Below are positions 1 to 64,000 of a stretch of 64,000 nt of DNA, piece by piece. The DNA comes from Amoebophrya sp. A120. Taxonomy: Eukaryota > Protista > Dinoflagellata. The notes under the pieces are model-generated. The model was given only the letters and a program-made list of their open reading frames with translations. It was not told the origin of the DNA and did no database searches. The DNA is taken from NCBI GenBank assembly GCA_905178155.1, contig CAJINV010000001.1, forward strand, positions 2,718,089 to 2,782,088, given 5' to 3'. The stretch's first letter is position 1; each line of letters begins with the position of its first letter. The position numbers and the translations under genes were made by a program.

Positions 1-2587
1 GAGAACCTTGCCTGCAGAACCGCCGGTCGCCACCGGCGGGTACGGAACACGAGCCGAGGCAAGGCCGTGGATGGTGTGCAGCGACGTCCGAGATCACTTG
101 TGCCGCTCGGAGATGCCGCCGTCGCGGGGTTCAAGGCAGAGCACGAAAAGCGCCCGTTCGATGTTGTGGCGTTCGTGAACCGGGAATCTGGGGGGCAAAC
201 CGGAGTAGCGGTCTTGTATGAAGTAGAAGGCGTTATTGCCTGAGAGAGAAGGCCGCGACGCGGTTGTTACGAGCAGGCAGAGCGTGAGCAATAAGCTATT
301 TTGTTCTCAGCTATGTGCCTATCCTTACTACACTACGCGATGCATGTGTCATTCAAAGGGAACGTACTACAGAAGCAACAGCAAGCTGCATTCGACGCTC
401 GAAAGCAAATATTCATTCCTGTTACACTGCTTTATCGCTGTGCTGCCTTCTCTGCAGGAAGTATTTGGAATGAATTAAGCAGCTGATCAACCTACTGGGC
501 GGTGAGCATGTGGTGAACCTCGCCGACCCCGAGGAACCCGCCGCCACCCTCGCGACTTGGGACTACCGGCTAGCGAGCGGTGTTTTCCGGGCCAACCGAG
601 CGAGCGGCGCCTGGTCTAGTGCGGCGTCCAGTCCAGAGCGGGAGAAGAACTTGCTGCAAAATATTAAATCAACCGAGAAGCCTGTACTACACTTTGCCCA
701 AGAGAGTACTAGACCACTGAAAGCGAAAACGAGCAGCCAAGGGTCAATCTCCAAGTCGTCCCCTGCAGCCGTGAAATTCGCTAGCGACGAGGAGAAATTA
801 TACGAAGTGTTTGAAGACGCCGTCGAGCAGCAGTACTACCATTCCGATGATCAAGGTACAGCTACTACCTTTCCGCAAAAACTCTTCCACGACGTCGATC
901 ACGATACTTCATCTCGCGGCATCCGGTTTCTGGTTTGCGGTGGCGATGGGACGGTGAGCTGGATTTTGAGTGAGATCGCGGCTTTCCCCGCACTTTCCGC
1001 GTACCACAATGGCGTTGCGATCTGCCCGCTCGGGACCGGAAACGACCTGGCGAGGAGTCTAGGGTGGGGGAAGGGCTTGCAGCGCTTGGAGGACCTGAAG
1101 CTCTTCCTGGAGTGGACCATGCACGCGGATGCAGTGGAACTTGACCGGTGGTGTTTAGAAGTAGAGCCGGAAGACGAGTTGCCAACCGACCACTGCTTCC
1201 ACCAATTTGAGAACTGTCTGCCGAAACGGGAAGAGGTGAACGATTTTGAACTTGAGAAGGCGTCCTCACCGCTACGCTTCTCTAGTCCGCAGCGGGAAGG
1301 GGAGGAGAATGCTGACAAGGACGAGGATCCATGCAGCACGGCAACGCCGTCCGATACGAGTCGCACGCCCGCGTCCTCGGTCCGAGAGAGGCACGGCAGG
1401 GGCAGTGGGAGTAGTAATAAAGTGGAGCCTGTTCATCTTACTAGCGTGCTTCGTCAAGTAGATCCTGTGTCAGGAACAACCGCTTCCTGGACTAAAAGCC
1501 CTAATCTCGCCTACGCGGTGCCGTTGCCGAAATACCGCGGGTATTTTCACTGCTACTTCTCCATCGGCCTGGATGCGGAAATAGCCTACCACGTGGAACG
1601 GAGCCGCAAACTTTCGGCGGTCGGCCGCCGCTTCTTCCGGGCAGGGCTGGGAAAGTGCTGCTACGGGTGGCATATCAAATCCAAATATGTCTGGGTCTGG
1701 AAGGTTCCGAACTTGTGATGCGTGTTTCGGATCCTACAAAGATCTGTGATGCATAACGTGCAAAAGGTGCCCACTTCTGGCCATGCTGAGAGGGCATTTC
1801 TCATGCAGAATACGCATCACCAAGGACCTGCAGAACCTGTGACGCTAGGCCCTGCATTCCAGACGGGGGGGAGGTTGGAAAAACTGCATGACAAATCTCA
1901 GAATCTCCCAAACCCAGACATTTTTGCATTTGATATGGCAGGGGTTTGCGAAGGTTGGCTGTTTTGCGCGCCAGTTTTGCTGCAACTCGACGCTGCTGTC
2001 CCGGGACGTGCGGATCTTGGAGCCGCCGGTACACAACTCAAGCCACACTTTTGCGTAGTGCGTCATTTGATCAGATCAAATACAAATTGATCTTTCCTTT
2101 TTGTGTAAGTACTGTGAATGTGGTTCTAGAAATCCAGTGCGAACAAACAATGTCACCGGCGTCCTCAACTTCTTTTCAGGTCGAGCAACTGGAAGCTCGG
2201 AAGATTCAAGCGTGCCTCTTGAAAGGTCGTTGCCGCCAGCTCTCCCTGCTGAACATCAACAGCTACGGAAGCGGTGCGCAGGGCGCGCGGGCCGAGACGC
2301 AGAGCGCGCGGGACCAGCATCTGGAGCTCTGCGCCGTGCGGAATCCGGGGTTCGATACGGCGTTGTTTTGCGGGTTGGCGAAGATGCAGGAACTGGAAAA
2401 GGTGCAGCGCTTGACGCTGCACGTGCAGAAACCCGTCTTCATGCAGTACGACGGGGAGGCTTGGTTTCTTCCCTGTCCTTCGGTAATCAGCATATTTCCG
2501 GCGAAGGACGCGGTCCGGCTTCTGCGCGCGCCGCCGGACGCGCCATTTTGGAACAATCGGCAAACGCACGGGTTTTGGGATCAATAG
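1..2587 (+). CDS. Diacylglycerol kinase (5'-partial); exons ~<1-222, 483-1672, 1941-2028, 2180-2587
   Basis: DAGK catalytic motifs VAFVNRESGG (frame from base 1), VCGGDGTVSW and PLGTGNDLARSLGWG; accessory-domain motifs YFSIGLDA, LNINSYGSG and MQYDGEAW. Joined through GT-AG introns 223-482 and 2029-2179 and the TIR element at 1673-1935. Confidence 0.9.
1673..1935. mobile_element. TAT...ATA introner-like element, family A (263 bp), TSD TGGCA
   Basis: 5' TATCAAATCCAAATATGTCTGGGTCTGG and 3' CCAAACCCAGACATTTTTGCATTTGATA; TGGCA at 1668-1672 and 1936-1940; removal gives ...CCYGWQGFAKVG... Confidence 0.93.
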
Positions 2588-3151
2588 GGACTACTTCGAA
2601 ATGTAAGTAAGTAAGCAGTCGTGGTACAACGGAGAAACCACGACAGCAGCGCAGGAAAGTAGTGGAGCGAACTTTTGTCCTCAATCGTGTGAGTTTGAAG
2701 CTTGGAAGTCACATAATCGAGGAGGCTGTAACTGTCTTCTCTGCGTTTGCGCCACACTTTATCGGCTTCGATTGTGCGAGCCCTTTGGTTCTTCACAAGC
2801 GGAAACTACCGATCGAGATTTAATACTTGTTGGGCAACTCAGGATCTCTTGCACTATTGTGAGTAACCCTGTTGGTCTTCAAGAGATATCGATGGTCCGA
2901 AGATTTATGCGCCACGTTTTTTTTTCGAGCTTTGCCAAGGAAGTACGTTGTCGCATTTGTACATCCACGATTTTTACTGACTCCGACGTAGGTCTCCACT
3001 ACGGAATTGACTTCAAGAACCCAATGGCGAGGGAGAATGAGCTAGGGATTATTTCCTTCTGTCTGTTGGAACCGCTACCGCTACTAGCGAAGCACTTAAG
3101 TCGTTGTACAGAGTCGATCTTTTTCCTGTGTTTTTTTTCAAAATTTAAAGT

Positions 3152-6100: not shown

Positions 6101-9100
6101 GAACTACTCCCGAACAGCCTCCGCAACGCCCTGGACAGAACAGCCAGGATAGAAATGCAAATACGGGTGATTCAGATTCAGTCGCTTTACCGGGAAGGAG
6201 TAAAGAAACAAGCTCAAAAATCGCAGCTGCGCCACCCTCCCAACGGCACTTCGAGTTGTTCCAGCGCGCTCTCCCGACCTGGCAAACCGCGAAGCCGTAC
6301 TTTGAGAACCGGGTGTACGTGAAAAAACCGTGCTATGGAAGTGTCAGGTTTGAAATCGACAAAGTTGAAATAATTTCTCATGCATAAATTGCAAGGCATG
6401 AAGTGCCTCTCTTGCAGGGATGGCAAGTGAGGCCGATCGTCAGCCTGTTTGGGGTCTGCGGGAGAGCTGCTAAAGTAGCATGGCAAAAGCCTTCTTCTGT
6501 TCCTAAACAGCATGACAGCCTGGATTTAGACGGTGCCAAAATTTGTCATGCACCGCTCGGAAATTGGACTTCCAACTGGTATCGATTTTCTGCATTTCAA
6601 CTTTGACGATTTCAAGCCTGACACTTGCATACGTGCGTGCAACCGGTGATCGAGAACGCGTGTCTTCATTTTGACCACGTGTACACCGATTCTCTTCCGG
6701 AAAACACGCTTCTGCCCTCCTGCGCGGAACTGCGCCAGCGCGCCTATGTGCGCACGAAACGGTTTCCGAGAAGTAAGAACGCGGAAAAATCTAAATCATC
6801 GTCGAGAAGTGGTGATGGGAATAAAGTTTTTTCGTTTGAAGATTTCCCGCCTTACAAAACCTCCAGCGGCACCAGCAGAGAAACGATCGGGATTGTCACC
6901 AACATGAACCTGCCGGCCAACGTTGGGCACGACATGACATGGTATGTGCCCCTGGCAGAGACGGTGAAGAAAGTGCAAAAACAGGCGAAAGAGTCTGAGA
7001 AGCCGGTAGACATTGAGATCCAGCTCTTCTACCATTACCACTACGGGAATTCGCTGAGCAAGATTTGGCAGCGCACGGTACAGACCGTCGGGAATTACAG
7101 CGAAGCAGTGGACGACGCTGGGGAGGAGGTTGCACTTGGCATAGAAGAACAGGCCGCGCAGACCTTGGAAAAGCTGGAAGAAGTCGCTGGGGCGGAAATA
7201 AAAGCGTCGAGCAGTCCTCCGGAGCTGCTGTCAGAAACTGTGAAGCACCAGATCATTCCGAAATTCGCAAATTTCGTCGAGACCGAAGTGCTACCAAGAA
7301 TCGCTTCCGGGGAGAGAAACGCGTTTTACTATGAGGATTTGTTCAAAAACTTTCTCCAAGACGTGCCCGTGCACCACAGCCTCCACTCCGTCTCCGAAAT
7401 GCGGTGCTACCACAAACTGGTTTGGGGCCGCGGACCCCTGTACAACATGCGACACGCGGTGCAGGCGGGAGTGGTGGCGGTTGGAGGAGAGGGCGATATT
7501 AGAATCAGCGGAAAGATGTTGAACAGCGGAGACGAAATAAAGCCATTCATCTTCGCAGCAACTGATCTTCCGCACGACCAGGAGCATTTATCTGCAGAGG
7601 TAGCGACGGCACAATCTACTTCCGCGCTTGCAACAAGCAGCTTCAATAGCCCGTATTTCCTTGACAACCGCAGCACCACTGTTGCGCGGTTTTACCCCGG
7701 ATTCGAACAAACAACTTCAGCGGCTGCTCCAGGCGGAGCAGACACTAGAGAAATAAAGAAGCACAACGACGAGAATAAAGACCAATCGCCCTTCTTCCCT
7801 TCCAACCTGATCTCCTTTTCCCGCGAGAACGGAGACTATTTCGTTGCCGAGTACCGTGACTACCTGCAAAACTGGGAGTGGAACCCGACCGACCGCAGAG
7901 TCGCGGCCGTGCGCGAGAAACAACCGCTCCTGTGGCAGGCCTCGGTTTGCCCTGTGGACGAGGAAAAGAACCTGGAGACCAATCCGATTGCGCTGGAGGA
8001 CGCGAATATCGGCGAGTACGACCAGGAAGTCCTCCACTCATTCGGGTTTCTCGGGCTCCCACCCAGACCGCTCGTGGATCCGGATATGAGTGTCCAAAGG
8101 GAGTTGGTCGACTCCGAGGCGAATCCGCGCGGCATGCTGCAGGACGACGAACAAAACATGCAGTTGGGCGTGCCGAAGTGCATCCCGGTCCAGACGGACA
8201 ATACGACTTCGTGGAGCTCCCTGGTGGGCGATTTGGACCGAAAAGTGGATGAACTCGCGGTGGCGAGACGGGTGACGGAGAAAGCGACGTACTACGTGCG
8301 CAGCATGCAGTATCCCACGAAAAAAGTGTTACAGTTACACATTTGTTGGAGTTTCTGCGTCACAAATTTTCTCTGTGTGGCAGAGAAAACTTGTAATGCG
8401 AAGATCATCAGGGAAATCAGGAAGGAAACCAGGCTCCCAAGCATCTCCTGCATGAGAAAGGTTGTCTGTGTTGCCGGTCTTGCAGCACACTGTGTAACTG
8501 TAGCACTTTTTTCTTGCGATATGCAGACCTCGCAGTCGAAGAAAACGACGCACATGATGTACGTGCACCCATTGCACCAGGAGCCCGTGTATCCTGTGTA
8601 AAAAGGTCCCCACGTCGACCCCAGAGTTGTCATGCAGATTTGCAATGACAGGCTCGCTTGTAATGCGCTCTCCCATGACAGGCATTGCCAATCGTGTTTT
8701 GCCATTTGTAATGCTGCAAACAGGATCAGCAGACGGATTTGTGATGCGGATGTCCTTGCTGACATGCACTAATACACTGCGAACTGCAACTTGTCATGCG
8801 TGGCTCCCAAAACTTGCGGATTTGTGTTGTTAAGTGTCCAACTTCACTATGGGGTGGGCACGTTTTTACATATGATACCGTGCTGCGGGCCCTCGGCCGG
8901 CAAACCCGGCCGAAGGCGCTGCTGTTCGACCGGCCCGGGGGCTATCCGCGGAGAATTTTGAACTTGGAGGAGCTCGCGCGGTTTTTACTCGCGAAGTTTT
9001 CCACCGTGTTCGACTGGCACATCGTCGCGGGCCTGGAGCAGTTCAGCGGCGCGGACCAGATGCGGCTGTTCGCGCAGTCCTCGTTGGTTGTCGGCGCAGT

Positions 9101-23749: not shown

Positions 23750-25314
23750 ATGTCGGCCAAGCAGAAAGAGGCCCTGGCGCGCCTTTATGCGAAGCAGCAG
23801 AAGAAGCCCGCGGGCGACATTGCTCCTGCCGCGCCCGCTGCATCCGAACCTCCCAGCGTGGGTGCCGGACCCGCACCCTCCAGCGCCGATCCCTTCAACC
23901 CGGACAACAAGGATAAATGGCAGCATGATGGGTACCAGAATCAGCAGAAAGGGTACTGGAACGGCAACAAGGGCAAGGGCAAGAACGGGAAGGACGACCG
24001 CGAGAACCCCAGCAGCTTTTTCTGGCGGTACTACGACCCGGACTGCGGCATGGCCAAGGCGGAGTGGGAGCGTGAGCGCAAGCGGAAGCGGCAGGAGCGC
24101 CAGGCCATGGAGTACCTCGCGCAGGCCGAGACTATGGGCAGTCTGGAGCCGAAGGCGGTGTTATGGAGAAAAAAAAGTTTGTCAGAGTTACTAACTTGCA
24201 GGCTTTGCATTACAAATTTTCTCAGCATCACAAACTTTCCTTGTATTGCAGAAACACTAGGGAAATCCCTCATGAAGTTTGGCTGTGATGCATTTTTACG
24301 CATGACAAACAATTTTGTATTGCAAGAATGCGCATGAGTGATCGTGACGAACTTTTTTTCTTCGATAGGTGTCCGATGAGGACTACTGGGCGGCGATCTT
24401 CGCCCGGGAGGAGCGTGAGATCAAGATGAAGAGCATCGACGGGTATCAACCGCAAATATGTCTGAGTCTGGAAAGATGCAAGGTTTGTCATGCTCTACCA
24501 GCATGATTCTCAGGTTTGTCATGCAGATCACCCAAATGCTCAATTTTTCTGTCATGCAGAGCCCCAGTTTCTCATGCAGAATAGACAACACCGCAGAAAC
24601 ATGAACATCTCCAAAACTTGTCATGCTTGGCAGCCAATTGAGGCGTGCTCCTCGTTGTCCAACCACCATCACAAGTTTCCAGACCCAGACATATTTGCAA
24701 TGCATAACGGGAACCTGATCTACGGGAAGATTGTGAAGCGCAAGGAGATGTACGACACGACGGTGGAGTTGCAGTTTGACTACGACAAAAACGCGAAGTT
24801 CAAAAAGAAGACGCGGACCGAGGACCACGATATGCAGCAGCAGCGGAGCAAGATCGAGCTGCCGCAACGGATGCAGCAGTCAGAATTTCTCGGCTGGGGG
24901 CGGTCGTCGAACCGGGCGAAGGGCGACTGGGACCACTTGAGCAAGGACAAGATGAAGGGCGCCATGAACCGGGATCGCGACGACGACAGTCCGCGGTTCG
25001 GGAAATCCAAGGGCAAGGGAAAGCGCGGCGGTTCGCGGTCTCGGTCCCGCGGACGTGGCGACGGAAAGGGAGGCTCGTCCTACGGTGGCGGCGCGTCCTC
25101 GTCTTCGCGACCCTGGGGCGGGGATAGTAACAATTACCGGGGGCGGGGAGACCACTACAACGCGGGTCCCTGGGACGATCGCAAGGGCGGCAAGGGGAAA
25201 GGCGGGTACGGCGACGGTGGCAAGGGGGACAGTAGTTCTTACAGCCGGCCTGCGACAAATCACGACAACGCGCTCGAGAGCCACATGGGCGAAATCACAC
25301 TAGACGATCTGTGA
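23750..25314 (+). CDS. Uncharacterised protein with RGG/RS-rich low-complexity C-terminus (probable RNA-binding protein); exons ~23750-24161, 24373-24443, 24712-25314
   Basis: Frame continuous (KAVSDEDYWAAIFAREEREIKMKSIDGNLIYGK) after removing two TIR elements; RGG/GKG/RSRS tail. Confidence 0.75.
24162..24367. mobile_element. TAT...ATA introner-like element, family C-like (206 bp), TSD GGTGT
   Basis: 5' TATGGAGAAAAAAAAGTTTGTCA and 3' TGACGAACTTTTTTTCTTCGATA; GGTGT at 24157-24161 and 24368-24372. Confidence 0.88.
24444..24706. mobile_element. TAT...ATA introner-like element, family A (263 bp), TSD ACGGG
   Basis: 5' TATCAACCGCAAATATGTCTGAGTCTGGAA and 3' TTCCAGACCCAGACATATTTGCAATGCATA; ACGGG at 24439-24443 and 24707-24711. 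Confidence 0.92.
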
Positions 25315-25997: not shown

Positions 25998-28975
25998 ATG
26001 CCGGTGGCCGCGAGCTCTACGATCTGTAAGCTTGACGTCTCCTCCCAGGCTGTGATCGACCGGTCGGACTCCGATCCGCGGACGATATGCGGCGACAAGA
26101 CGACGAAGAAGCTGAAGCACCTGCACAGTGGCTCGCTTCGCCCGGACCTGGGGCCGTACTTCAAATGCCAGCGGGAGTTGTACGACAGTGGAAAAGTCGC
26201 GCTGAACGTCGAGGAGGACGGCAGCGCGTTCGCGTACTACCCGAACGGCAAGCGGGCGATCTGCGTGTCGCAGGCGCAGAAGGCGCGACGCTTCTCCGCG
26301 ATGTTCTTCGGGAACGAGCAGGGCAGTCCGTGGCTCGGATCCATCAACGAGTGGGGTTTGGGCAAGATCGAGAGTGCGGCAGACGAGGGTGGGAGCATCT
26401 ACCGATTCGTTTCGACCCGCGACGCCGTCTCGGTCACAAAGAAGTCCGCGGAAACCGGAGCCGTTTTGTCCACCGAATCGGTTCCGTGGGCGACCGCGGT
26501 GGATGACAGCAGCTTCCAACGGATCCAGATGCCCGTGGCGGCGTCCTCCACGGGCTCCATCACGCTCCGCGTCTGTTTCAACCGGTTCGCGAAGCACAAG
26601 GCCGAGACCAGCCGCGGGCCGGGCCGCACCGGCGTGCTCGGCAGCCAGCCGCAGACCACGGGCGTCATTCTGGCGGATTTCCGGGCGGAGAAGGTGAAGC
26701 ACACGTTTGTGCTCGGGATCGTGCCGCCGTCATTGTTCGACCCATCTAACGCCGGGCTGGCGCTTTTGCAGATAAAAACGATGCGGCACAGCGACCCACA
26801 GCAGCACGCCGAGGACGTGCGGTTAGAAACCGCGGGGATTCTGGAAAGAACCTCCGCGGCTTTGAGCCGTGCGCAGTCGGATTTGACGACGGCTCTGCCC
26901 GGATCCCCCGCCAAGAAGATGTCAACTAGTACCAGAGGCGGTGGATCCTCGTCCAGCTCCGCGCTGCACCATCAGACGGTGAATGTGGACCCGGTGACGG
27001 GCAGACACCTGTTCGGCACGATCAAGGATAAGTTTGCGGCCGTGACGGGAGCCGCGCCGGTCACAGACCTTGACGGCACATTTGAGAACCTCACGTTGAA
27101 ATTGACGAAAAACCGGGTGGAGTACAACGTAGAGCGAGAGTTGGCGCAAAAGGTGGCGAAGGCAAACCCGACCTTTCCACGACTCGCCGGGTCGATGACG
27201 AACGAGACCACCGGGGAGTCGGCGAAAATTGGGATCAAATACTTGAGTGGAAAGCTCATGCTCGGAGGGGAGTCCAAGTTGAAAGCCAGCAAAGGGATTG
27301 ACGATGGGGTAGGTGGTCCTACCTTTGTGATAAAATGTTTCTCTTCGACGGTTGAACAATTATGAGCATAACGCACATCGACGATGTTGAGGTTTGGGAG
27401 AGCGAGAAATTTGATTTTTCCACGTAACATCGTATACACAGCACAACCGCTGGTTCTATCCCAAGACGGTGCAGACGCTCAGCCACGACGAAATGGAAGA
27501 CGCTTTGACGCGAAGTAAGGCCAAAATGTTTGTCGTGTGTTTTCACGCACCGTGGGATCCCCAGTCGAAGCACGCGGAGAAGCTGATGCAGGTGGCCTGT
27601 GCCTGCGCGAAGAAATTTGAGAAAAGCATCGACTTCGCAATGGTAGACATGGCGGAAAGGGGGGCGCTGATCTCCGACCGAAGGTGCTTACTTGGCAGTC
27701 ACTTTTAGAAGTGTGGAATTATGCAGCGATGTTGATGTACTAGAGACAGCACAGGAAATGCGAATGCCAGTGTAACGACCGCGTTTGGTTTTTTCGTCCA
27801 TCATCATTCACCACTTATACACTTTTATCTTTCATATTCATTTCTATTCACATCAAATCCATCGATGTCCACATCAGGTTCGTCAACGAGCTCGCGCACA
27901 AGTACTCCGTATCCTGATTAAAAACGTCCCCACACCAGAGTCAAGATGGGGATTTTGCAACACAAACCTAGGAGCTTTGGGAGTCACGCATGACAAGTTT
28001 CAGTCCGTAAGGTAGTGCAGGTTAGCAAGGAAAGCCGCATCACAAATCGATCTGCTGATCCTGTTTACAGCATTACAAGTTCCCAAACACGATTGGAAAT
28101 GCCTGTCGTGGGGTTGCGCATCACAAATGTTCCTGTCATGGCAAATCTGCATGACAACTCTGGTGGTCATGGTACAATGGGGGGGAAAGTGTGTCGCATT
28201 TTGTTTAGCATGACAACTCTGGTGTGGGGACGTTTTTACTCAGGATACTCCGTAACTGCCACGCCGTGGCTTCTGGTCTTCAGCAAGGGCGTCCTCATGG
28301 TCTCCAAGAAGATGACGGGTTTTGTCGAGCGCTTGCGGTTCGAGACCTTTGCCAAGCCACGCGCGCTGCTGGTAGAAATCCCCGGCACGGTCGTCGGCGA
28401 GCGCGGCTTTCCCTACGGACCCGAAAACCAGCGGCGCAGCAAGAACGCGCTCGTGCGCGCACAAGTGGACGCGGACCACGCACTCAGCGGAAAGGACGCG
28501 ATGCTCTTGGCGGGACGCATGACGCCACCCTATGGACTCGTGTTCGCGAGCAGCGAAGTAGGATGTCGTTTTTTTTTTGGGCACCTGAATGATTGAATAG
28601 ATAATTTTATTCTCTGTTTTTGAAGAACACGTCGAAATAGTAGCACTAGGCACCGACGACCACATCTTCCCACACGACTCAACCAAGGTGCCTTACTCCG
28701 AGCTGGAGGGCATTCGCGGCATGGTGATGCGGCGCAACCCGGGCTGCCTGTTTTTCCTAATTCACCATGACAAAAAGCACATCGTCTGTCCGGAGACCCA
28801 GCACCGACTGCTCGACAACCCGGCGGGTGTGGATTACGTATTCCGCCGCCCGCTGGCCACGAGCCGCATTCAGTCCGTGCTGGCAGAGCTCACGCACACC
28901 GAGTTCGCCCTTGCGGGGGAGAGCGGACACCAGTTCTGGGATTACTTAAAGCAGCTGCTGGAGCTGAAAACGTAG
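25998..28975 (+). CDS. Multidomain protein: FAM194/ERICH6-like domain, thioredoxin-like fold and degenerate receiver (REC)-like domain
   Basis: YDSGK...DGSAFAYYPNGKRAICV (FAM194-like); FVVCFHAPWDPQS...AMVDM...LAHKYSVTATPWLLVF (Trx fold, no CxxC); ALLVE...ALSGKDAM...PYGLVF...VP...GVDYVFRRP (REC-like). GT-AG introns ~27309-27441 (acceptor could be 27465), 27684-27877 and 28558-28687, plus one TIR element. Confidence 0.65.
27910..28247. mobile_element. TAT...ATA introner-like element, family B (338 bp), TSD CTCCG
   Basis: 5' TATCCTGATTAAAAACGTCCCCACACCAGAG and 3' CTCTGGTGTGGGGACGTTTTTACTCAGGATA; CTCCG at 27905-27909 and 28248-28252; removal gives HKYSVTATPW. Confidence 0.94.
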
Positions 28976-33041: not shown

Positions 33042-33793
33042 CGCCAGGCCGCTCGGCGTTTCTTCGTTTCTTTAGCACCGCGCAAAGAAAAAAAACTGCA
33101 GGCTGCAATGAACAGATGAGGATTAACAACTCACTTCCTCCACTAAAGTGAAATGACATGTATTTCTCCTCTGCGTCTGTCATTGATTTCGCAATAAGCG
33201 ACGTGTGGCGAGCAGGCGATGGTTCTTATTCCTACAGGCACTCTAATCGAAGTAGAGCACCATTGCTGATGTGCCTCCGCCTTCTGGTCCGGAACCTAAT
33301 GTGCTTCCTGGTCGAGTTGTCGTCCAGGAGTTGTAATTGAATTGTTTTGGATCCACAGTACGGTGGCTGAGGCTGAGGGGAAGAGCGAATGAGTGTCCTT
33401 GAGAGTGTGCAAACGTGCTGGTTGAGTGATTCCCTCAAATAAAGTGCCTGCTCACAACCTACAAACTCCGCCTGCTTGCGCAGTCTCTAAAAGAAAGGAG
33501 GCATTTTTTCGAAAACTATTGCAATCGTTGACTGAGTCATCTGGGCTAGCACGACAAAAGCTTTTTGCCGGATCTACGAACTCATTTTTGCGTAGAGATG
33601 TATCTATCAGGAGAGTTGTGAGGTACATACTAGCAGCTCCCCAGACACTTCTCCTTGCAGAGGACACTACGCCACATAAAATCTACTCGACGTCGACTCA
33701 GACCAGGGGACGTCTCTTGCGAAGCGGGGGAGTGGAATCGACAAGAAAAGACAGCAACAAGAACGACAAAAACCAGTCGTGCAGTGAAACAAA

Positions 33794-36700: not shown

Positions 36701-39700
36701 TTGGTCGGTTGCGACATAAACCAGACTCGCAACCCGGAGGGCAAGTCGCAACCTACCGCTGTAGAAGAAGCGCCGCCTCTATCTCTGAAGAAGCCGATGG
36801 ACATCCAGCAGGCTATTGGAGTAGACCGCCCGCTTCTGTCTCTGTCCAAATACGGGGCCCCGAAAGAACAAGCATGGGGGGACAGACGGCAGCACACTGC
36901 TGCTGTCGAGGGTGGTCGAGTCTCGGCTGGTACTTAGAGATCCGCTATCGCGCTCCGTGGTGGTTTATTCATTTCTGTCCTTTTTATTCTCGTACTGCTT
37001 CCAGAAACAGGAGCGCGCTCTCCTTCTCCTGAGTGCCACAAGCAAAAGCCTTGCACTTAGGCTTCTCGAATCACGACGGCACGGCGTGCCCTGGTTTATG
37101 TCGCAACCGACCAACGAGGCGACGGGTAACCAAGTTTATGTCGCAACCCACCAGGTAAGGTAGTCCAACCACGCCACAGTTTATCTCGCCGCCAAGGAAA
37201 CCCGGATCTCGCAACCAAAAACCAAACCACCACCAAAAAAGCGCCAGCCTTCAAGGTGTGCTTGAAGCTCTTCCGTACTCACTCGATACATTCGCGACCA
37301 CCAACCACCACACTGTATACTCGCAACCACCAACCACCAGAAAACGCCAGCCCCACACTCTTGCGCGTGCAGTTATATACAGAGACTTGAAATTGTAACT
37401 CTAGTTGCATTATAGCAGCTTGCGTCTTCTGTATTGCATTTATAGAAACTGGCGTCTCTTCTGTGTTGCGTTTGAAAATAGGAGCTAGTGCCTGTCGTGT
37501 TGTATATGCAAATTTATGGTGTGGTGGGAGTGTTTTCTGGGAGAATGAGTTAATGTTTGCAGATACACGACCGTTCCGGGGGATCCGGGATCTGGGGCAA
37601 CGACGGGACGGAGCCGGATGGGCTGGCGACGCGGACAGGCCAACCAGGCCAACTTCTCATCCACCCGGCCGGGTGGATGAGAAGTTGGCCTGCAACTACT
37701 CTTTTGGAGTTTGTTACCCCGCTCTTACACATGACAAAGAAAACTTGGCATGCGTGCTTCCTAAGGGAAAACACAGCTAAAAATCCAATGTCTTGCATGT
37801 GTAGCAAGACAAACACATGTGCGTTCCGTTCTATGCATCACAAGTTTACAGTGAAACAGTTTTTTCTCGCGATAGGCGGCTACTTTGTTTATGTCCTGGC
37901 TGGTGATGATGGGCATCGTCGCGGAGCGCGACACGAGCAAGGACCCCGAGGTGAAGAACCGGGGCGCGAAGCTTTGGGAAGATATGCATTGCAAATTTAT
38001 CTGGTTCTGGTAGATTGCGGAATTTGTCGTGCTAGTCTGGCATGACTCTGAGCTCTGTATTGCGTGGCCGCGTGGATTCCTCGTGCCTGTCATGCAAAAA
38101 CGCACCGGCCTATCATGCGGGATAGTACGCAACGCAGAATGAACCACGGAAAAACTTGTCGTGGTTTTTGGCAGCGCATGATTGCTTCCAGCGTGCTCAC
38201 TATGTATTCCTTTCCTTGCATTTCACCATCCCAGACCCAAAGATTATATTTGCACCTGATAAAGGAGTTCCTGGACTGTTTCACGCTGGATACCAGCCAG
38301 GGCTACGACTTCGCGTTTGTGGTACTGGGCCGCACGTTCTACTACTGCAGCGTCTCTTCCCAGGCGTTCATCTTTTTCTACATTCGGGACTTCCTCACCG
38401 CGGACCGGCACCGTATCACCTACAATCTGGCCGGCGTAGCCATCATCAGCTACTGCATCGCGGTCATTGGCGCCTCGACCGGGGGGGCCCTGTCGGACCG
38501 CCCGGGGTACGGGCGGAAACGGATGGTGTACCTGTCCTGCATCGTTATGTGCGTCAGCTGCGGGATGCTGTTGCTGTTCCCCTACGTGGTCAACGGAAAC
38601 TTTGCCCTGCCGAAAACGGTGGAATTCCGCCAATTTCCCAAAATGGCGCTCGACCCGGAGGAGGAGCGAACGGAGTAAGTAGTTTTCGCTGCTTGTTCCT
38701 TGGACTGCAGTTGTTTTCGAGATTTTGATATTGATTCTGCCACTTCCTTGCACCTGCGCGTTTCTGCACATTACATGCCTAAAGAAGATGCCCTGTAGTC
38801 CTTGTGAGTTCTTCCAGAACCTCGAATAAATGCAGGTTCCTCATTCCGTCTGGGGACAGTGACGATGACGGCCCTGCGGGCGTAAAAACCCTGAACTTTC
38901 AAACCCTTGCCCATTTCGTTTCTGACAAGCTCCACTTCGAAAAGTTGAAACAAAGCGTCTTGAGTATTACATGGAAAAATGTCCCCACCCCCAGAGTTGC
39001 AATAATTTGTGATGCGAAGTTTCCAAATGAAAACTTTTTGTCATGCATGAAAGGAATATGAATCTTTGTGATGCAGAGTCTAGGCGTATATAGCATTGCT
39101 TGCATGACAAGCGCCGCTCTTGCTGGGATCTTTTGCAATACAAATTTTCGCTATTCACGACTAGAAATCTGTGATGCTGCTAGATGCAAGAGGGCGAGTG
39201 TTTCTCTTGGAAAGGTTTGCAATACAAATGCTCCCAAGTCCGGGGATGGGGGCACTTTTCACTGCGATATTGAACTTCCTTCATTCCATCGAAGACCCGT
39301 CGCAGCGAGAACTGAGGGGCTGGTAAGAAAGTTATTTATTTTCATCGCTGCGGCTAATAATGCTTATTGTGCTTATCTATGGTATCAGATTTGCTTTACC
39401 ATAGTACTCCAGACCTCCGATTCTGTCGTTTCTTGGCACGATAATTCTTTATCAAAGATTGTCTCTACTCCACGTCCACTTTCCAGGGGTTACATTTTTG
39501 CGACCGCCATGGTCTATGCCTTGGGAAACGGGGCGTTTTCGGCTGTAGACTACGCACTGGCGTTGGATACACTTCCTAACAAGAACGCGGCGACGCAGAA
39601 CCTTGGATTTTGGTCCATCTCGCACTTCATCGGGTTTGCGGTCGGCCCGGCGGTGTATGGCGTGCTCCTTCGTGGCACCGCGCAATTTTCCACCTCCGTT

Positions 39701-39817
39701 GAGGCCAACGACCCGGCAAATTTCGCCTACACGGGCTACGCCCTGGTGTACTTCACCGCGATGCTCTTCCAGTTGATCTGCGCGCTCTTGGTTTTCAAGG
39801 TGAAAGGAAGCACCTGA
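33794..39817 (+). CDS. Major facilitator superfamily (MFS) transporter, 11 exons
   Basis: The reconstructed protein has motif A GKLSDRCRSVYGKRRPY, IIADLVSPEQRGEASG, GALSDRPGYGRKR and AVDYALALDTLP. It is interrupted by seven TIR-element introns and three GT-AG introns (34381-34531, 38675-38835, 39323-39486). Confidence 0.92.
33932..34183. mobile_element. TAT...ATA introner-like element, family A (252 bp), TSD AACAC/AACCC
   Basis: 5' TATCAAATGCAAAAATGTCTGGGTCTGGAA and 3' TTCCAGACCCAGACATTTTTACATTTGATA. Confidence 0.92.
34584..34848. mobile_element. TAT...ATA introner-like element, family A (265 bp), TSD GTGCC
   Basis: 5' TATGAAATGCAAATATGTCTGGGTCTGGAAG and 3' CTTCCAGACCCAGACATTTTTCCATTTGATA; removal gives QLVCPPLGKLSDR. 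Confidence 0.93.
34925..35556. mobile_element. Family A introner-like element (outer) containing a nested element, TSD TGTTC/TGCTC
   Basis: 5' TATCAACTGCGAAGATAATGTCTGGGTCTGG; the 3' TIR CCGGACACAGACATGTGATTTGCACTGCAT..A is split by the inner element; removal gives RRPYMTMF|TFPTIFAFF. Confidence 0.87.
35228..35550. mobile_element. Nested TAT...ATA element, family E (323 bp), TSD TGCAT
   Basis: 5' TATCAAGAGGAAAAATCCCCCCTCCCCA and 3' TGGGGAGGGGGGATTTTTCCTTTCGATA; TGCAT at 35223-35227 and 35551-35555. Confidence 0.9.
35785..35997. mobile_element. TAT...ATA introner-like element, family B (213 bp), TSD CTTCT
   Basis: 5' TATCTTGCGTAAAAACGT and 3' ACGTTTTTACACATGATA; CTTCT at 35780-35784 and 35998-36002; removal gives LAGNFCLQSVAY. 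Confidence 0.9.
36119..37724. mobile_element. Non-autonomous foldback/MITE-like DNA transposon with TTA TSD (PIF/Harbinger-like signature), 1606 bp
   Basis: Termini GAGCGGGGTAACAAACTCCAAAAGAGTAGTTGCAGG... and ...CCTGCAACTACTCTTTTGGAGTTTGTTACCCCGCTC; TTA at 36116-36118 and 37725-37727; imperfect inverted arms of roughly 600 bp; no transposase ORF. Confidence 0.85.
36151..36198. repeat. Perfect 48-bp palindrome (second copy at 37645-37692)
   Basis: CAGGCCAACTTCTCATCCACCCGG-CCGGGTGGATGAGAAGTTGGCCTG is self-complementary and identical in both arms. Confidence 0.95.
37983..38261. mobile_element. Degenerate family A introner-like element (279 bp), TSD GAAGA/AAGGA
   Basis: 5' TATGCATTGCAAATTTATCTGGTTCTGG and 3' CCAGACCCAAAGATTATATTTGCACCTGATA; removal gives AKLW[E/K]EFLDCF. 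Confidence 0.82.
38965..39269. mobile_element. Family B introner-like element (305 bp), TSD TTGAG/TTGAA
   Basis: 5' TATTACATGGAAAAATGTCCCCACCCCC and 3' GGGGATGGGGGCACTTTTCACTGCGATA; removal gives KQSVL[S/N]FLHSIEDP. Confidence 0.85.
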
Positions 39818-47800: not shown

Positions 47801-50800
47801 CGGCCCGACACCGACCGGTTCGGCGTGCGTCGTTGGTGCGAGACCCGTCGGGCCGAATCAGTTTCATTTCGGCAGCGGACTTCCGCAGGGTGGGAACGAC
47901 CGGCGGACTCCTGGGGAGTAGTAACAGCCAAGACACGAGCCCCAGTTTGACGGGCGCGTCGCCCCTCCACACGACCAAAAGCGGTTCCGGCACGGGGTCG
48001 GAGAGCATGCCACTCTCGGCCTACCGCAGAGGGTCAATTTTCAAGGGCGTGAAAAAAATCGAGGACCTTGGGCTGGGCGATCGGGGGATCCCGCTCTTCC
48101 AGAACAAAGCCAAGCGGTTGTCAATCGAGGAAGGGAAAACGTTGAAAGCGTTGCAAAAGTCCGACTCGCTACTGTCAGATGTCGAGGAGGACGAGGATGT
48201 GGATGTTGCGGGAAACAAGAAGAGCGCTGAAACAAAAAAGGACCTCGCGGACGATACAGAGGAAAATCGAAAAGGCGACTCGGAGAAGTCTAAGTCAAAA
48301 ACGACCGCGACCGGTGAAAGCAGAGGACTAGTGGTTGCTGAGAACAAAGAGAGCACGTTATTTTCCTCACCGGCAGGAGCTTCATCCGACACAGACGCAA
48401 AATCAAGCTCCGCACCTCTTTTCCCAGCGGATCAGAAAGTGATGAAAACCTCTACCCCAGCAGAAGAAGACTTAGTACGCCTGCTCCCAGTCGTGGCACA
48501 AGCCGTGTTGCAGAAGATCTACGCGGATTACGCGTTAAGCGCAATCCGCCTCGAGAACCAGGTCAACGTAAGCCGCCAGCCACGCCGCAGCAGTTTGAAA
48601 TCATCCTCCTCCGTTACGACCGGGGGAGCGAGTGCAGGACCTCCGACATCCTCTCGCCGCTTGTCCGTCACCTTGACGGACACTCCGCCCGACCAACAGA
48701 CGTTTCTCGTGGACAAGCGGGAGACCGAGCAATTCGAAGATAACGGCGAGGAGAGCTATAAAAACGATTCATATAGTTATAGTATTAGTAAGAAAAATAC
48801 ATCGAGGCCGCAGCGCATCAAACTGGCGATGAAGGCGACATTGATGATGGAAGGCGATGAGTTGGAAGACGAAGACGAGGAACAACAACAAACTGGGGGT
48901 GCAGCTTCTCTCAATGCAAGCGGAAAAAATCTGCAAAATTATCCCGACAAGAGTGCGAGCAGCTCCTCGGCAGGCGAGACCAGCCAGAGCGACCGGGATT
49001 ACAATTCTACTAATGTGAACAAGAACTATGCTTCTTCCCGATTCTCTGCGAAGTCGCCGGACGACCGGGTGAAGCAAATTTCGCGACAGCTCCGTCGGCG
49101 TTTGCAGAGCGCTGTGATGGACCGCGCCAAGGACGGGCGGTGGGATCGAAAGACCACGTTTTTCGGACGGCGGTCCACCGAACGGGGTGTGAACCCGCGG
49201 GATTTAGGGGAGATGTTCCACGTGCGCTACTTTACGTTCGTCATGCACTTCCCGGAGGCGAAGTTGCTGATCGACCGACTGGCGTGGCAGCACGAGAAAA
49301 AGGGCCGCATGCTATCGGAGGAAAATCTCGAAGGCGTTTTTGAAGAAGTGCAGTCCGCGTTGTCCGGGCTGCTGCTGGGGTATGTGAAAGGTATTTACTA
49401 ATTAGTGCTGTTTGGTCGTGTTCATCGAGTGCAGTCAATATGCTGACGTTGATTGTGTTTGTGTCTTGCTGCCATGCGTGGCTAGCTGCTATGGTAGATG
49501 TAGATCTTTGTGCAAAAATCCCCAATTTTTATCGATCCGAAAAATCCAGATGCTCTGGAAGCCCAGACGTCTCAGAAGAAGCAGGCGAGCACGGAGAGCG
49601 TGCGTGCGGACCGGTGTGTAGATTTTCTGATGGAGGTCGGACTTCACCCCCTGGTCGAGGAAGAGGAGAAAATATTGAAGGAAACCCTGCACAAATACCT
49701 GCGCCTGAACCTCATGCCATCCACGGCGTCGGGAACGACTGGTGCGTTTTCGCTGGCGGGAATAGGAGGTACAAACATGCTTGGAGGTGCTGGATCAAGT
49801 AGTCCTCCTGGCGCGGGTGGCGGGAACAATACGAAATCAATTTTTAGTGACACTAGTCCGAGTTCTTCTACCAGTCCGACTGGGATCATGATGAACAGGC
49901 CGAATGGGACGAATGGCAACCGCGGCGGGGACCAAAATACCAATTCGATTTTCTCACCCTCAAATTCTGGCGCGAACAAAAACGGCGGGCTGACGTTGAG
50001 CAGCCCAAATCATGGAGCAGGTGGAACCAATGGAACTGCTTCGCCCTCAAAGAACAGTTTTTTCGCCGGCGGTTTCGATGCTGTGAACCGTAGGAATTCC
50101 ACGAACGCGAAGGCACTGTCGAAGGCGCTTCCGTACGAAATTCTGCGGAAAATCCATATGCAGCCGAGTGACGTGGTGAAAGTAGTTATCCTGAGAAAAA
50201 AGTGCTACAGTTACACACTCTGATGGAAGACAAGCAAGACAGATAAACTCTGTCATGCAGGAAATGCGTGCCACCCTCATTTCATTCGTGTTTTCGCCTT
50301 ATAGTCTGCGCAACACAGGTTTTCTTTGCCATGTCGAGCAGCTTTGTGATGCAGAAAGTCCAACAAATGTGTAACTGTATGTAACACTTTTTTCCTGTGA
50401 TAGTAGTGAAGGAGACACTGGAAAACTTCCAAGCCGTCTATGACGACCAGAAAACCAAGGTGATTGAGGACTACGACCTGAACAAACAAGTTTTACCCAC
50501 GTTCCAACGCGGCGGGGCCGCGAGTTCCTTCTCCCCGACTTCGTCCAGGCCGTGCTCGCCGATGGGAATAGTTGGTGGGCCGTTCTCACCAGGGAGTGCT
50601 GGTGGTGGTAGTTTATCGAGCGAGGACGAGACGCACATGCTCCGAGACTTGTTGGAGCTGTACAAAGCTTTTTGCGCCATGGACACGGGGAAATGCGGCG
50701 TTCTAGCGGGCAAGCAGCTGGACTCGCTGTCCAGAACGGTGTTCGGCGAGAACCGAGCGGCCAAACAGAAGTATCTGCACAATGTGACACAGGTAGATCT

Positions 50801-56158: not shown

Positions 56159-58971
56159 ATGACGGTCTTGTCGGACAACTTCACTCCGCGTTCGACACAT
56201 TCGTCGAAAAACGCGAATCATTCCGCGAAATCGACACCTCGCGGCAGTACCGCTTCACACTATGGGGACGAGAGTATACACGGCACTCCTGCAGCAGGTG
56301 TTGGACCTGCCACTGGTGGAGGATTCCAAAGAAGCATGTCCAACCACAGCATTGCGTCGTCGATTCACGGGAGTGAGCAGCACGCTGTCGACAGAACGCC
56401 TGCGGCTGTTGTAAACAATGCGAACGATGATCTTCAGGGAGACAGTAGCAAGCCACTGGGCAGTGGTGACGGGACGATCTGTACACCGACAGAAACTACA
56501 GGACCTGGGTCAGTGACCACGAGGACACCTGTAGTTGCTTCCACCCCGATCACGTCCTCTGTACTACCAACCCCGTCGTCGGCACCAGCTCCTTCCAGTA
56601 GCAGCAAGCAATCCTCGTTACCGGTAATCAGTGCTCCCACGACACGCCCCCTCATCTCCTGCCAGGGGTGCGGGAAACAGACCACGTCCGAAATGTGCTG
56701 CCCCACGTGCAACCAGTTTGGGAGGCAAAGCTTCTTCTGCACGCAGGACTGCTTCAAGAAGAACTGGAACGTGCACAAACGGCTTCACACCCTCCTGCAG
56801 CAACAGAAAGAGCTGGCGGAGAGCGAAACGGCGAGCCTGGCCTCGGACATGGCGGCCACGTCGCCAGACCACCGGTCCGAGGGACTGATGAAGCGGGGCT
56901 TGTCGCAATTACGCGACAAGGTTTTCTATCAAGTGCAAAAATCTCTGGGTCTGGAAACTTGTGATGCTGGGTGGCGTCTCATGATGAGGCTACAGATGCT
57001 GGCTCAGCATGACAAGTTTCTGAGCTCCTAGGTATTGCCTATTCTGCATGACAAAGTGCGCTTCTGCATCGCAGAAAAACGGAGCTCTTGGGTCACGTGC
57101 ATGACAGATTTAAATGTCATGCCAGACAAGCATGACAAACATGAATTCTTCCAGACCCAGACATTTTTACATTTGATATTTTCCACCAAAGCAGCAGCTC
57201 GTCCTTGTCGGTGCAGAAAAAAACGTCTTACGCCTCGCGGAGTTCCAGCAACAGCAGTAGTGTGAATGAGGAAGATCCGCAAATGGCCAATACTATCGAC
57301 GGAGAAGACGATTCCAAGAATTCGAAACCGCTGTCCACCATGTTTGGAAAATTGTTGTCTTCACAGCCCTTCTTGAACAATTTGGTGCAGCAGCTCCCGC
57401 TTTCCTCCATAAGCGTTTCGCCGTCCCGGGGTCCGAGCAAGCGCGGGCTGTTGCCAGGCGGGGGCGGGATGCAGAGTGGTGTGCACAGCCAGCAATTGAA
57501 TCACGCGGTTCTTTCGTCTGGGGCGTCCGGAGGAGGACACCAGAGTTCATACAAGCCGGGCGCTTTGGCGGCTGCCTGGAACTCTAGTAGTGACCCGGGC
57601 GGCGGGGGTGGAACGGCGTTTTCTGGTTCGCATCACGGACCGTCCAATTCAGGGAAAGTGCAAGATGTTGCAACCTCCCTACCTACTTCCCCAGCGCAGG
57701 TGTGCGCAATGGTGTTCTCTTGCTTCCTCGGCCTACCGCGCTTGCTGAAGATGCTGCTTTTTGCCTGTCTTTTCGTCTTCCTCACCATCGCCTACATCAC
57801 GCGTCGGCTCGCATCGCCAGAGATGAACGGAGCACTCGGGTCGGCGCCGGTGGGAGCGCCGATCCAGGATAACGCGAGCGCGCGGAAAGGCGCGGGCGTG
57901 TCCTTTCACCACGACCACGGCTGGACAATGGAGGACCTAGCAGAGCATCTGGAGGAGCACGAAAGAAGAATAGAGCAGCTAGAAGCCGCCCTGGCGAACT
58001 ACGAAAATGCAGGCTCGTCTTCCGGTGGAGCGTCCGTGAACGCAAGTCCCTTTGCAGCAGTCGGCAGCATTAGTGGAAGCAAAAGTAATACTCGGCCGGA
58101 AATCAGTGTGACTCCCGCTTCTTTTGCCGCGCCAGCGAGTAGTTCTCCTTCACTTGTTGTAGGTGGATCCTCCAACAGTAACATAGGCGCGGTCGTGTCG
58201 GTAGCTTCAGCAGCGAATTCTGCTGTTCGGAGTTCGACTAGTAGCGGTAACGCAGCAAGCTTTTCAGCAGAGGAGACCCAGCCTTCCGAGGGAAGCAAGC
58301 CTACGTCAGGTGAGGCCACTGGATTCGCTACTGCGCAGCAAATGAACGACATGTTCGCAGCCGTGGGTTCGCCAGCGCAGAAGACGGCTGCGGCTGCTAC
58401 TGGAGCGGTAGGACCGAACTCCGGTACAACTGCGGGAGTGGGAAACCAAGCTCCAAGCATTTTGGCTGGCACCTCCATGCCGGCGTTCGCAGCTTCGCCC
58501 GAGCCTTCGTTTTCTGAGCCGAAGGACGGTAGAGCGCCTGGCGACCCCTTTGTTGCTAATGGCCCTGCTGCTAACGGAGACGCATTCACTGCCACGAACC
58601 AGGTACAACTCATGCAACGTTGATGCGTCGAGTCGATCTTCCAAAGAAGGATGATGCAGCAAATCATTCGAATAAAAAGCGTGCGACACCAAAATGGCCA
58701 AAACTTAAGGAACCACGGATAATTAATCTCTCAGGTGCAACAGCAACGAGATGGGCCGGATTCGGCGTCCATTGGGAAGGCCATGCCCGAGGAGCAACCG
58801 TCATCATTTATGCAGGGCGGAGGTGAGCAAGAAACAGAAAATCGAAAGGCAGGAGGCACAGATGAGCACGAAAATCATCACCGCGGACTCGGATTGCCGA
58901 GACGAGAGAGTCCTGGACATTCTGACGAAAGTAGTGCATCGAATGACAGTCCAGGACAAGACAGGTTTTAA
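56159..58971 (+). CDS. zf-C6H2 (MetAP1-type, MYND-like) zinc-finger protein with a transmembrane helix and coiled coil; exons ~56159-56926, 57184-58602, 58735-58971
   Basis: CQGCGKQTTSEMCCPTCNQFGRQSFFCTQDCFKKNWNVHKRLH; TM MLLFACLFVFLTIAYIT; frame restored across the element at 56927-57178 and the GT-AG intron at 58603-58734. Confidence 0.78.
56927..57178. mobile_element. TAT...ATA introner-like element, family A (252 bp), TSD TTTTC
   Basis: 5' TATCAAGTGCAAAAATCTCTGGGTCTGGAA and 3' TTCCAGACCCAGACATTTTTACATTTGATA; TTTTC at 56922-56926 and 57179-57183; reverse-complement near-copy of 33932-34183. Confidence 0.93.
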
Positions 58972-63330: not shown

Positions 63331-63549
63331 GCCTGTCACGGATTCTCGCACACACGCAAACTCGTGGGACACTTACGACATCGCTACTCCGCAGAACAAC
63401 AAAACATACCGAGAAAAGATGGCGGACGTAAGTACTTTTTTCGATGCGGCGCACTCCTTGAGCGATTGTTTCTGTAAATATGTTTTCTTTTGTACTTCGA
63501 ACTAGTTTTCCAGTTTAAGGAAGTTTAAGTTTGACTCATCTGCAACGCA

Positions 63550-63850
63550 GTGAGCAAACTGAAATCAAGCGCGAACCTGAAAATAAAATCTTACCCCACC
63601 GAACAGATGCAGAAGGAGCGGAACCAGCAGGTGCGGCAGTACATCCGCGACGAAGCGGAGCAAAAGTACACGATCATCACTTTGGAGGAGAACCTGCAGG
63701 ACAAGATCCGCAAGCTGCGCGCGGCGCACGCGGAGATCGCCCGGCTGCAGGAGATCCTCCGAAAGAACGGGCTGGAGGCCGAGGTCGTGCGGGGGTGCCG
63801 CTACAATTCCGTCGGGGCCATCGACGAGGAAGTGGTCCCGGAGGAGGAGG
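63550..63850 (+). CDS. Partial coiled-coil protein exon, interrupted by an element and continuing beyond the window
   Basis: GC3-rich ORF EQMQKERNQQVRQYIRDEAE...LQDKIRKLRAAHAEIARLQEIL; the 5' end is unresolved. Confidence 0.6.
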
Positions 63851-64000
63851 TATGGATTGCAAATATGTCTGGGTCCGAAAGATTCCGAGATTTGTCACGC
63901 AGTTTTTCCAAGCTCCGCCAAGGCTGGAATGCAGGGCATAGCATCACAGGTTCTGCATCTGCAGCTCGTTGGTGATACCTATTCTGCATGAGAAATGGTC
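63851..64000. mobile_element. Family A introner-like element truncated by the window end (left flank GGAGG)
   Basis: TATGGATTGCAAATATGTCTGGGTCCG; the body is the reverse complement of the 3' part of the element at 1673-1935. Confidence 0.85.

What the first reader, a model, noticed from the sequence alone, without database searches (positions are those of the whole stretch)
1673..64000. The same element families sit in both orientations in sense-strand genes, so excision is orientation-independent
Seen: reverse-complement pairs 33932-34183 versus 56927-57178 (both 252 bp, family A), 1673-1935 versus 63851+ (A), 8590-8877 versus 27910-28247 (B) and 8311-8521 versus 50187-50402 (C). All hosts are on the + strand. 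Inference: polar signals such as a branch point or polypyrimidine tract cannot define removal. The symmetric TIR stem (UAU...AUA pairing), or a DNA-level process, must define the ends.
Basis: partly seen in the sequence, partly recalled or inferred. Interest (0 to 1): 0.85.

Follow-up and report, generated by a model that had tools for sequence, protein, structure and literature searches.

The report
Two-way transposon introns, one-way cut
In the marine parasite Amoebophrya, already described transposon-derived introns sit both ways round inside genes and are skipped either way in likely-RNA assemblies, and the cut likely falls a fixed, lopsided distance from the element's ends rather than at normal splice sites, which would make its unknown splicing mechanism testable.

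Summary
In detail: all four pairs are reverse complements and every host reads on +. The window is Amoebophrya sp. A120 and the elements are its published introner elements (TAT...ATA ends, 5-bp target duplication). Likely-RNA contigs skip all 10 element sites in 30900-50899, in both orientations, by exactly element + 5 bases, on the contigs that also skip GT-AG introns. In a related strain, family A lies 52:49 against the predicted host strand. The inference is only half right. The 25-38-base inverted repeats give each transcript the same ends either way, so only signals in the element body are excluded. Two results show polarity: the only cut register that fits all 10 joints is 1 base before TAT and 4 after ATA, and copies with unlike ends put TATC first 39:12. 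DNA-level removal is unlikely. Stems are predicted, but show no G-U bias, and one stemless old copy is still skipped. Two-way introners are known elsewhere; I did not find the fixed register or the TATC bias in print.

The parts
1673..1935 (.). Family A element, + orientation, in a diacylglycerol kinase gene; duplication 5 of 5
   Evidence: DAGK_acc match stops at the element start; removal not seen in RNA
6334..6631 (.). Element (weak reverse match to 35228), joins 907+654 codons
   Evidence: absent from annotated protein P0001
8311..8521 (.). Family C element, + orientation; frame-neutral (216 bases with duplication)
   Evidence: absent from P0001
8590..8877 (.). Family B element, + orientation
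   Evidence: absent from P0001
12548..12865 (.). Diverged element with A-like ends in an SF1 helicase gene; duplication 4 of 5
   Evidence: removal gives one 1652-codon frame; paralog 16472-21337 has no insert here
24162..24367 (.). Element, weakly C-like
   Evidence: X1 contig of 1441 bases fits exactly with this and 24444 removed
24444..24706 (.). Family A element, + orientation
27910..28247 (.). Family B element, reversed
   Evidence: X1 contig of 2473 bases fits with it removed, after one GT-AG acceptor was re-chosen to fit
31167..31468 (.). Family B element, + orientation
   Evidence: joint skips 307 in 3 of 4 runs
32115..32370 (.). Old, degenerate element; duplication 2 of 5; no predicted terminal stem; excludes register 0/+5
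   Evidence: joint skips 261 in 3 of 4 runs
33932..34183 (.). Family A element, + orientation, MFS transporter gene; duplication mismatch at base 4 excludes registers -2 and lower
   Evidence: joint skips 257 in 4 of 4 runs
34584..34848 (.). Family A element, reversed, same gene
   Evidence: joint skips 270 in 4 of 4 runs; orientation
34925..35556 (.). Element with A-like ends carrying a nested element in its 3' inverted repeat
   Evidence: joint skips 637 in 4 of 4 runs; sequence
35228..35550 (.). Nested element with its own 5-base duplication, inserted one base before the outer element's end
35785..35997 (.). Element, family unassigned
   Evidence: joint skips 218 in 4 of 4 runs
36057..37874 (.). 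1.8-kb element with C-like ends and an internal 430-base inverted repeat
   Evidence: joint skips 1823 in 4 of 4 runs
37983..38261 (.). Family A element, + orientation; duplication 3 of 5
   Evidence: joint skips 284 in 4 of 4 runs
38965..39269 (.). Element, family unassigned; duplication mismatch at base 5 excludes register 0/+5
   Evidence: joint skips 310 in 4 of 4 runs
50187..50402 (.). Family C element, reversed
   Evidence: joint skips 221 in 1 of 4 runs, depth 5.8; frame
56927..57178 (.). Family A element, reversed
   Evidence: 266+479 codons joined; no RNA laid here
63851..64000 (.). Family A element, reversed, cut by the window end
   Evidence: removal untested
33788..39817 (+). MFS transporter gene with 8 elements (one nested) and 3 GT-AG introns; spliced frame 584 codons

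Best explanation
These are the non-autonomous inverted-repeat introner elements of Amoebophrya A120, which sit in exons in both orientations and are likely removed from the pre-mRNA by a modified spliceosome that is predicted to read the inverted-repeat ends instead of GT-AG, cutting likely 1 base before UAU and 4 bases after AUA. Steps: (1) insertion by a DNA transposase that duplicates 5 bases, with no base preference (duplication shown; transposase inferred). (2) Because both ends carry the same repeat, either orientation presents N-UAU(C/G)..A-run at the 5' side and U-run..AUA-NNNN at the 3' side (shown). (3) Removal of element + 5 bases restores the coding sequence (shown in likely-RNA contigs). 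(4) The mRNA keeps four bases of the upstream duplication and one of the downstream copy (inferred from mismatched duplications, assuming one register). (5) The offset puts U, A at intron positions +2, +3 as in a normal donor, with +1 and the last two bases free; the terminal stem probably stands in for U1 and for acceptor scanning by holding the ends together (inferred, untested).
For: 10 of 10 element sites in 30900-50899 skipped by element + 5, on the same contigs as 3 of the 4 GT..AG joints listed. One register, -1/+4, is common to all 10. Orthologous A120 protein P0002 has the residue expected if base 5 comes from the downstream copy (indirect). 167 of 203 elements in related loci have a perfect 5-base duplication, against 0-5 at lengths 3, 4, 6, 7, 8; no base bias in the duplication; only 5 of 142 would be GT-AG. 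Orientation 52:49 for A, 5:6 for B. TATC preferred 5' among unlike-ended copies, 39:12, p 0.0002, 17 tests, locus permutation p 0.001; 24:10 with an independent strand call. Farhat 2021 (PMC7789003, sections 10, 16 read): U2, U4, U5, U6 and 83 of 89 spliceosomal proteins found in A120, U1 snRNA not; 15% of canonical A120 introns have the same repeats (section 11).
Against: No lariat, branch point or snRNA pairing was tested; nothing here shows that the spliceosome is the enzyme. The register rests on three joints (33932, 38965, 32115) of one sample, none of them a reversed A, B or C copy, and on assuming one register; 2 of 10 joints would allow GC..AG or GA..AG in another register. A second protein test of the register found nothing. 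The TATC bias is absent in the window (3 against 4), and three TATG-first copies (24162, 34584, 37983) are skipped. No G-U excess supports a selected RNA stem; 32115 has no predicted stem. X1-X4 are only guessed to be RNA.
Confidence: 0.5

Rival explanations
1. A separate, non-spliceosomal RNA endonuclease-ligase recognises the terminal stem and cuts at -1/+4, as proposed for euglenid nonconventional introns.
For: Terminal dinucleotides are free. Stems predicted in 15 of 16 elements folded (pair probability 0.58-1.00 at repeat positions 11-25); arm duplexes -15.5 to -50.2 kcal/mol against -5.5 to -11.4 for 7 GT-AG introns. Euglena rule N3-CDG...CHG-N5-6 is also a lopsided count from a paired motif (PMC12501133 abstract and passages); circular excised forms are reported there (review PMC11282704 section 6).
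Against: No G-U bias; stemless 32115 skipped; the TATC-first bias points to reading of a single strand, and it favours a C-C over a G-G mismatch. Stems follow trivially from transposon ends. No such enzyme was searched for.
Confidence: 0.3
2. There is no single register: a relaxed spliceosome picks the best near-canonical dinucleotides within the slidable duplication, intron by intron, as in Polarella classes with several frames.
For: Farhat Fig. 3 legend calls splice sites variable relative to the hairpin. GC..AG is possible at 36057 and GA..AG at 37983. Multi-frame classes in P. glacialis (10.1101/2020.10.14.339549 passages).
Against: 0 of 10 joints allow GT..AG in any register, 8 of 10 allow none of GT/GC/GA..AG; duplications show no G or AG enrichment; one register fits all 10.
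Confidence: 0.14
3. Elements are cut out of the DNA (ciliate-like elimination or somatic transposase excision) before transcription.
For: Transposon anatomy and orientation balance fit; X1-X4 and X5 are different samples, so a stage-limited process is not strictly excluded; only 15 of 788 X5 joints were shown.
Against: DNA-like run X5 has unbroken contigs at single-copy depth (24-30) across exon-element borders at 24162, 31468, 38261, 38965, 39269 and through 32115. Skips share contigs with GT..AG skips. Register and TATC bias follow the transcript. Farhat found two putative transposases in A25 only, none in A120.
Confidence: 0.04

Closest known systems
Introner elements of Amoebophrya sp. A120 (Farhat et al. 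2021, PMC7789003)
   Same: Same organism; repeats start TAT, seven variable bases, then an A-run; 5-base direct repeats; about 240 bases; in exons; non-canonical ends (sections 10, 11, 16, supplement part 2 read).
   Different: In the text I read, orientation within families is not discussed (all hits for 'orientation' shown concern genes) and the borders are left unresolved (Fig. 3 legend; Fig. S23 legend, 1-5 bases). Figures were not visible.
Two-orientation TIR introners of Aureococcus anophagefferens (Huff 2016) and Polarella glacialis (Roy et al., bioRxiv 10.1101/2020.10.14.339549)
   Same: MITE-like elements with target duplications that make introns in either orientation, with some strand bias (passages; Huff 2016 itself not held).
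   Different: They carry or recruit GT/GC/GA and AG sites, so the duplication has a required sequence; here it has none and neither end is a standard dinucleotide.
Euglenid nonconventional introns (Nomura et al. 2025, PMC12501133)
   Same: No GT-AG; paired motif near both ends; cut at a fixed, unequal distance from it; slidable direct repeats.
   Different: Motif CDG/CHG with spacers 3 and 5-6 and a purine after the cut; here UAU/AUA with spacers 1 and 4, long repeats and recognisable transposon families; unrelated lineage.
Fritillaria borealis non-canonical introns (review PMC11282704 section 6; preprint 10.1101/2025.08.15.670264 one passage)
   Same: MITE-derived introns with non-GT/AG ends removed in a species with an altered U2 spliceosome.
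   Different: There the splice sites are the repeat ends with preferred dinucleotides (AG-AC, AG-AT); here the terminal bases come from the random duplication.

Membership tests
Amoebophrya A120 introner elements | Genome is A120 | tested here: met
   P0001, named Amoebophrya sp. A120 by its source, 100% identical
Amoebophrya A120 introner elements | Inverted repeats starting TAT, 7 variable bases, at least 3 A | tested here: met
   A-run irregular in a few old copies
Amoebophrya A120 introner elements | 3-5 base direct repeat at the borders | tested here: met
   5 bases; 167 of 203 perfect in related loci
Amoebophrya A120 introner elements | Repeated, and removed from transcripts | tested here: met
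   families; joints, runs only guessed to be RNA
MITE / non-autonomous TIR DNA transposon | TIR, fixed-length TSD, short, non-coding, multicopy | tested here: met
MITE / non-autonomous TIR DNA transposon | Cognate autonomous transposase | not tested
   no genome held; superfamily not assigned
U2-type spliceosomal intron | GT/GC..AG ends | tested here: not met
   0 of 10 GT..AG in any register, 1 GC..AG; 5 of 142 GT-AG at -1/+4
U2-type spliceosomal intron | Branch point and lariat | not testable with these tools
   no raw reads of this strain
U12-type intron | 5' site of the form R-UAUCCU (consensus recalled) | tested here: inconclusive
   UAUC at +2..+5 in 123 of 142, TATCCTG 16 at 5' against 8 at 3', but +1 is free and family A has AA at +6,+7
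U12-type intron | U11, U12, U4atac, U6atac snRNAs | not tested
   reported absent by Farhat 2021
Euglenid nonconventional intron | N3-CDG...CHG-N5-6|R signature | tested here: not met
   ends read N-TAT...ATA-N4; works alike, not a member
Euglenid nonconventional intron | Circular excised intron without lariat | not testable with these tools
   needs RNA experiment

The most novel reading that the evidence does not exclude
Amoebophrya A120 runs a second splicing code that ignores terminal dinucleotides: a reader of N-UAUC (U12-donor-like, in a cell reported to lack U1, U11 and U12) plus the transposon's own stem measures off -1/+4, so that any insertion of these elements into any exon, either way round and even inside another element's end, is erased from the mRNA without a scar.
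Probability: 0.3. Interest if true: 0.85.

Novelty: already known. Interest (0 to 1): 0.5.

Why it matters
What is open is how A120 removes tens of thousands of introns with no fixed ends. A single -1/+4 register and a 5' preference for UAUC, if they hold genome-wide, turn that into precise tests: they define the true intron ends for lariat or circle searches, say which bases a U6, Prp8 or new factor must read, would allow the A120 intron set to be re-annotated, and give a parallel to the Euglena code in an unrelated lineage. They would also explain why the family could spread so far: insertion needs no target sequence and no orientation.

Tried and rejected
No whole genome is held, so snRNAs, transposases and genome-wide counts could not be examined. 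No holder is on record as RNA. The joint table was filled by other copies in X5 (15 shown, 773 not). My first guess of the GT-AG introns around 27910 gave 2440 bases against 2473 seen; moving one acceptor to the AG at 27441 gave the exact length, so this fit is after the fact. G-U against A-C test: no support for a selected RNA stem. Protein test of a base-4 mismatch (L072) found no homolog. Pfam did not detect the downstream half of DAGK_acc after 1673. Rfam: 0 matches in the window. Earlier findings: none returned. Huff 2016 not held. Family C gave 0:3 and the 150-base family 9:2 by end type, so balance is shown for A and B only. A resemblance of TAT..ATA ends to the IS3EU transposon group is recalled only; the word does not occur in PMC12130899 and I did not test it.

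Full report
Observation. The eight coordinates are exact ends of elements that begin TAT and end ATA. With the terminal repeats trimmed, each pair matches only as a reverse complement, at 74-88% identity and scores 91-247 against at most 25 for shuffles. All ORFs over 340 codons lie on +. Scans for paired ends and an end profile give 21 elements in the window. Family A stands four times one way and three times the other, B two and one, C one and one (plus one weak copy).

Identity. A 270-residue exon piece is 100% identical to a protein named Amoebophrya sp. A120 by its source. That protein equals the translation with elements 6334, 8311 and 8590 removed, and not the one with 8311 retained; this is an annotation, not independent RNA evidence. 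Farhat et al. 2021 (PMC7789003; abstract, sections 10, 11, 12, 16, word searches, supplement part 2 of 5; no figures) describe these as introner elements: repeats starting TAT, seven variable bases and an A-run, short direct repeats, 29,850 copies, U1 and minor-spliceosome snRNAs not found, borders unresolved.

Removal in both orientations. Four contig sets of one sample, guessed to be RNA, were laid on 30900-50899 at 99% likeness. They list 14 joints: 4 GT..AG introns and 10 that skip an element by exactly its length + 5. These are all 10 element sites of the stretch: A+ 33932 and 37983, reversed A 34584, B+ 31167, reversed C 50187 (1 of 4 runs), and five unassigned, among them a 1.8-kb one and a nested pair. 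The MFS gene is one 2712-base contig in X1 whose length equals the sum of its exons and gives a 584-codon frame. In one search, a 1441-base contig fits exactly with 24162 and 24444 removed, and a 2473-base contig fits with reversed B 27910 removed, after one acceptor was re-chosen. That the runs are RNA is inferred from the GT..AG joints and from zero depth inside the long intron.

Larger sample. A collection scan with the family A end gave 159 loci; the 80 rows shown all belong to one record set (JACKZZ01), a close relative rather than the same strain (91% protein identity at one locus). They hold 203 elements, 167 with a perfect 5-base duplication. Host strand was predicted by a codon model trained on the window (47 of 47 held-out chunks right; 11 of 13 same-contig groups agree, 84 of 91 agree with an open-frame call). 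Among 142 elements with a margin of at least 5, A lies 52:49 and B 5:6; C 0:3 is too few. The duplication has the base make-up of its flanks. No RNA was available for these loci.

The repeats are 25-38 bases long, so a reversed copy shows the transcript the same first and last 25-38 bases. Only body-borne signals are excluded. Roy et al. (preprint passages) and a review of Huff 2016 (passage) report TIR introners that make ordinary spliceosomal introns in either orientation.

The cut is lopsided. Where the two duplication copies differ, the joint shows which copy the transcript keeps. 33932 allows intron starts -1 or 0 relative to TAT; 38965 allows -5 to -1; 32115 allows -2 or -1; 34925 and 37983 allow -2 to 0; the five perfect duplications allow all. 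The only common register is -1/+4: intron = N-TAT...ATA-NNNN. No register gives GT..AG at any of the 10; GC..AG and GA..AG are possible once each. One outside check agrees: at L004, mismatched at base 5, the A120 ortholog has the residue given by the downstream copy; a second check found no homolog. The register assumes uniformity and is not shown for a reversed copy.

A polar preference in the ends. Among copies with TATC at one end and TATG at the other, TATC is at the transcript's 5' side in 39 of 51 (p 0.0002; best of 17 tests; locus permutation p 0.001; 5:6 where strand is uncertain; both body orientations of A show it, 11:6 and 18:3); 24 of 34 with the open-frame strand call. It was found after looking at the data, is not seen in the window (3 against 4) and is not absolute, since TATG-first copies are skipped. 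Biased insertion relative to transcription would also produce it.

Stem. Terminal stems are predicted for 15 of 16 elements folded, in both orientations, but any inverted repeat folds so. G-U pairs do not exceed A-C mismatches on the transcribed strand (20:27; 90:108), and 32115 has pair probability 0.01 yet is skipped in 3 of 4 runs. The nested case fits stepwise removal: taking out 35228 restores the outer end, and the joint lies 4 bases beyond that restored end rather than beyond the inner end; it does not separate stem from linear signals.

DNA level. Run X5 (kind not recorded, flat depth, introns present, possibly the window's source) has unbroken contigs across five element borders and through 32115; its joint table was cut, so rare empty sites are not excluded. 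With the transcript-linked register this makes DNA excision unlikely.

Mechanism. Most likely (0.5) a U1-less, modified U2-type spliceosome reads N-UAU as donor positions +1 to +4 and places the 3' cut by distance from the repeat end, helped by the stem. A stem-directed enzyme as proposed for euglenids follows (0.3). The match of N-UAUC to the U12 donor is recalled and is a lead only; the minor snRNAs are reported absent.

Novelty. The elements and two-way intron creation are known. Nine literature searches and word searches in Farhat 2021, Gozashti 2022 and 2025, and two reviews showed no statement of orientation balance, of the -1/+4 register or of the TATC bias for Amoebophrya. The library lacks most subscription journals; Farhat's figures S19-S25, the Gozashti datasets and preprint supplements were not seen and may bear on this. 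PMC8469720, PMC12005148 and the tunicate preprint were seen as passages only. Interest 0.5: a known system, with a new and testable handle on an open question.

Noticed in passing
window 34925-35556: An element nested one base inside the 3' repeat of another; the pair is skipped cleanly, which fits inner-first removal (a twintron).
   Followed up: partly
window 36114-37729: A 430-base inverted repeat (75% alike) with palindromic tracts inside the 1.8-kb element; high depth in X5 suggests a further repeat family inserted there.
   Followed up: no
window 10369-15650 and 16472-21337: Tandem paralogous SF1 helicase genes (AAA_11/AAA_12); the first has the element at 12548, the second has none at that place, a local example of intron gain.
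   Followed up: partly
window 63846-63853: At -1/+4 this copy would start GT and, if its duplication is perfect, end AG, which would explain why some canonical A120 introns carry the same repeats.
   Followed up: no
window 41000-44800 and 59400-63300: GC-rich stretches without long genes; 61466-61969 and 62779-63306 are 69% alike; 41572-42905 is covered at low depth in X1-X4.
   Followed up: no
window 34762-34848: Raw RNA run X8 has about 200 reads on the 3' part of this element with foreign flanks, i.e. an unspliced related copy in a transcript or DNA of another strain.
   Followed up: no
L017, L019, L021, L026, L030, L040, L046, L049, L061, L072: A 135-165-base family with unlike ends, not in the window; TATCC end lies 5' in 10 of 12 copies, so this family is not orientation-balanced.
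   Followed up: partly
L073:1329-1608: One element flanked by an 8-base rather than 5-base direct repeat.
   Followed up: no
window GT-AG introns, e.g. 27309-27441, 34381-34531, 38675-38835: The 7 canonical introns listed end in C/A-rich stretches with little U-tract, so a polypyrimidine tract is weak here even for ordinary introns.
   Followed up: partly
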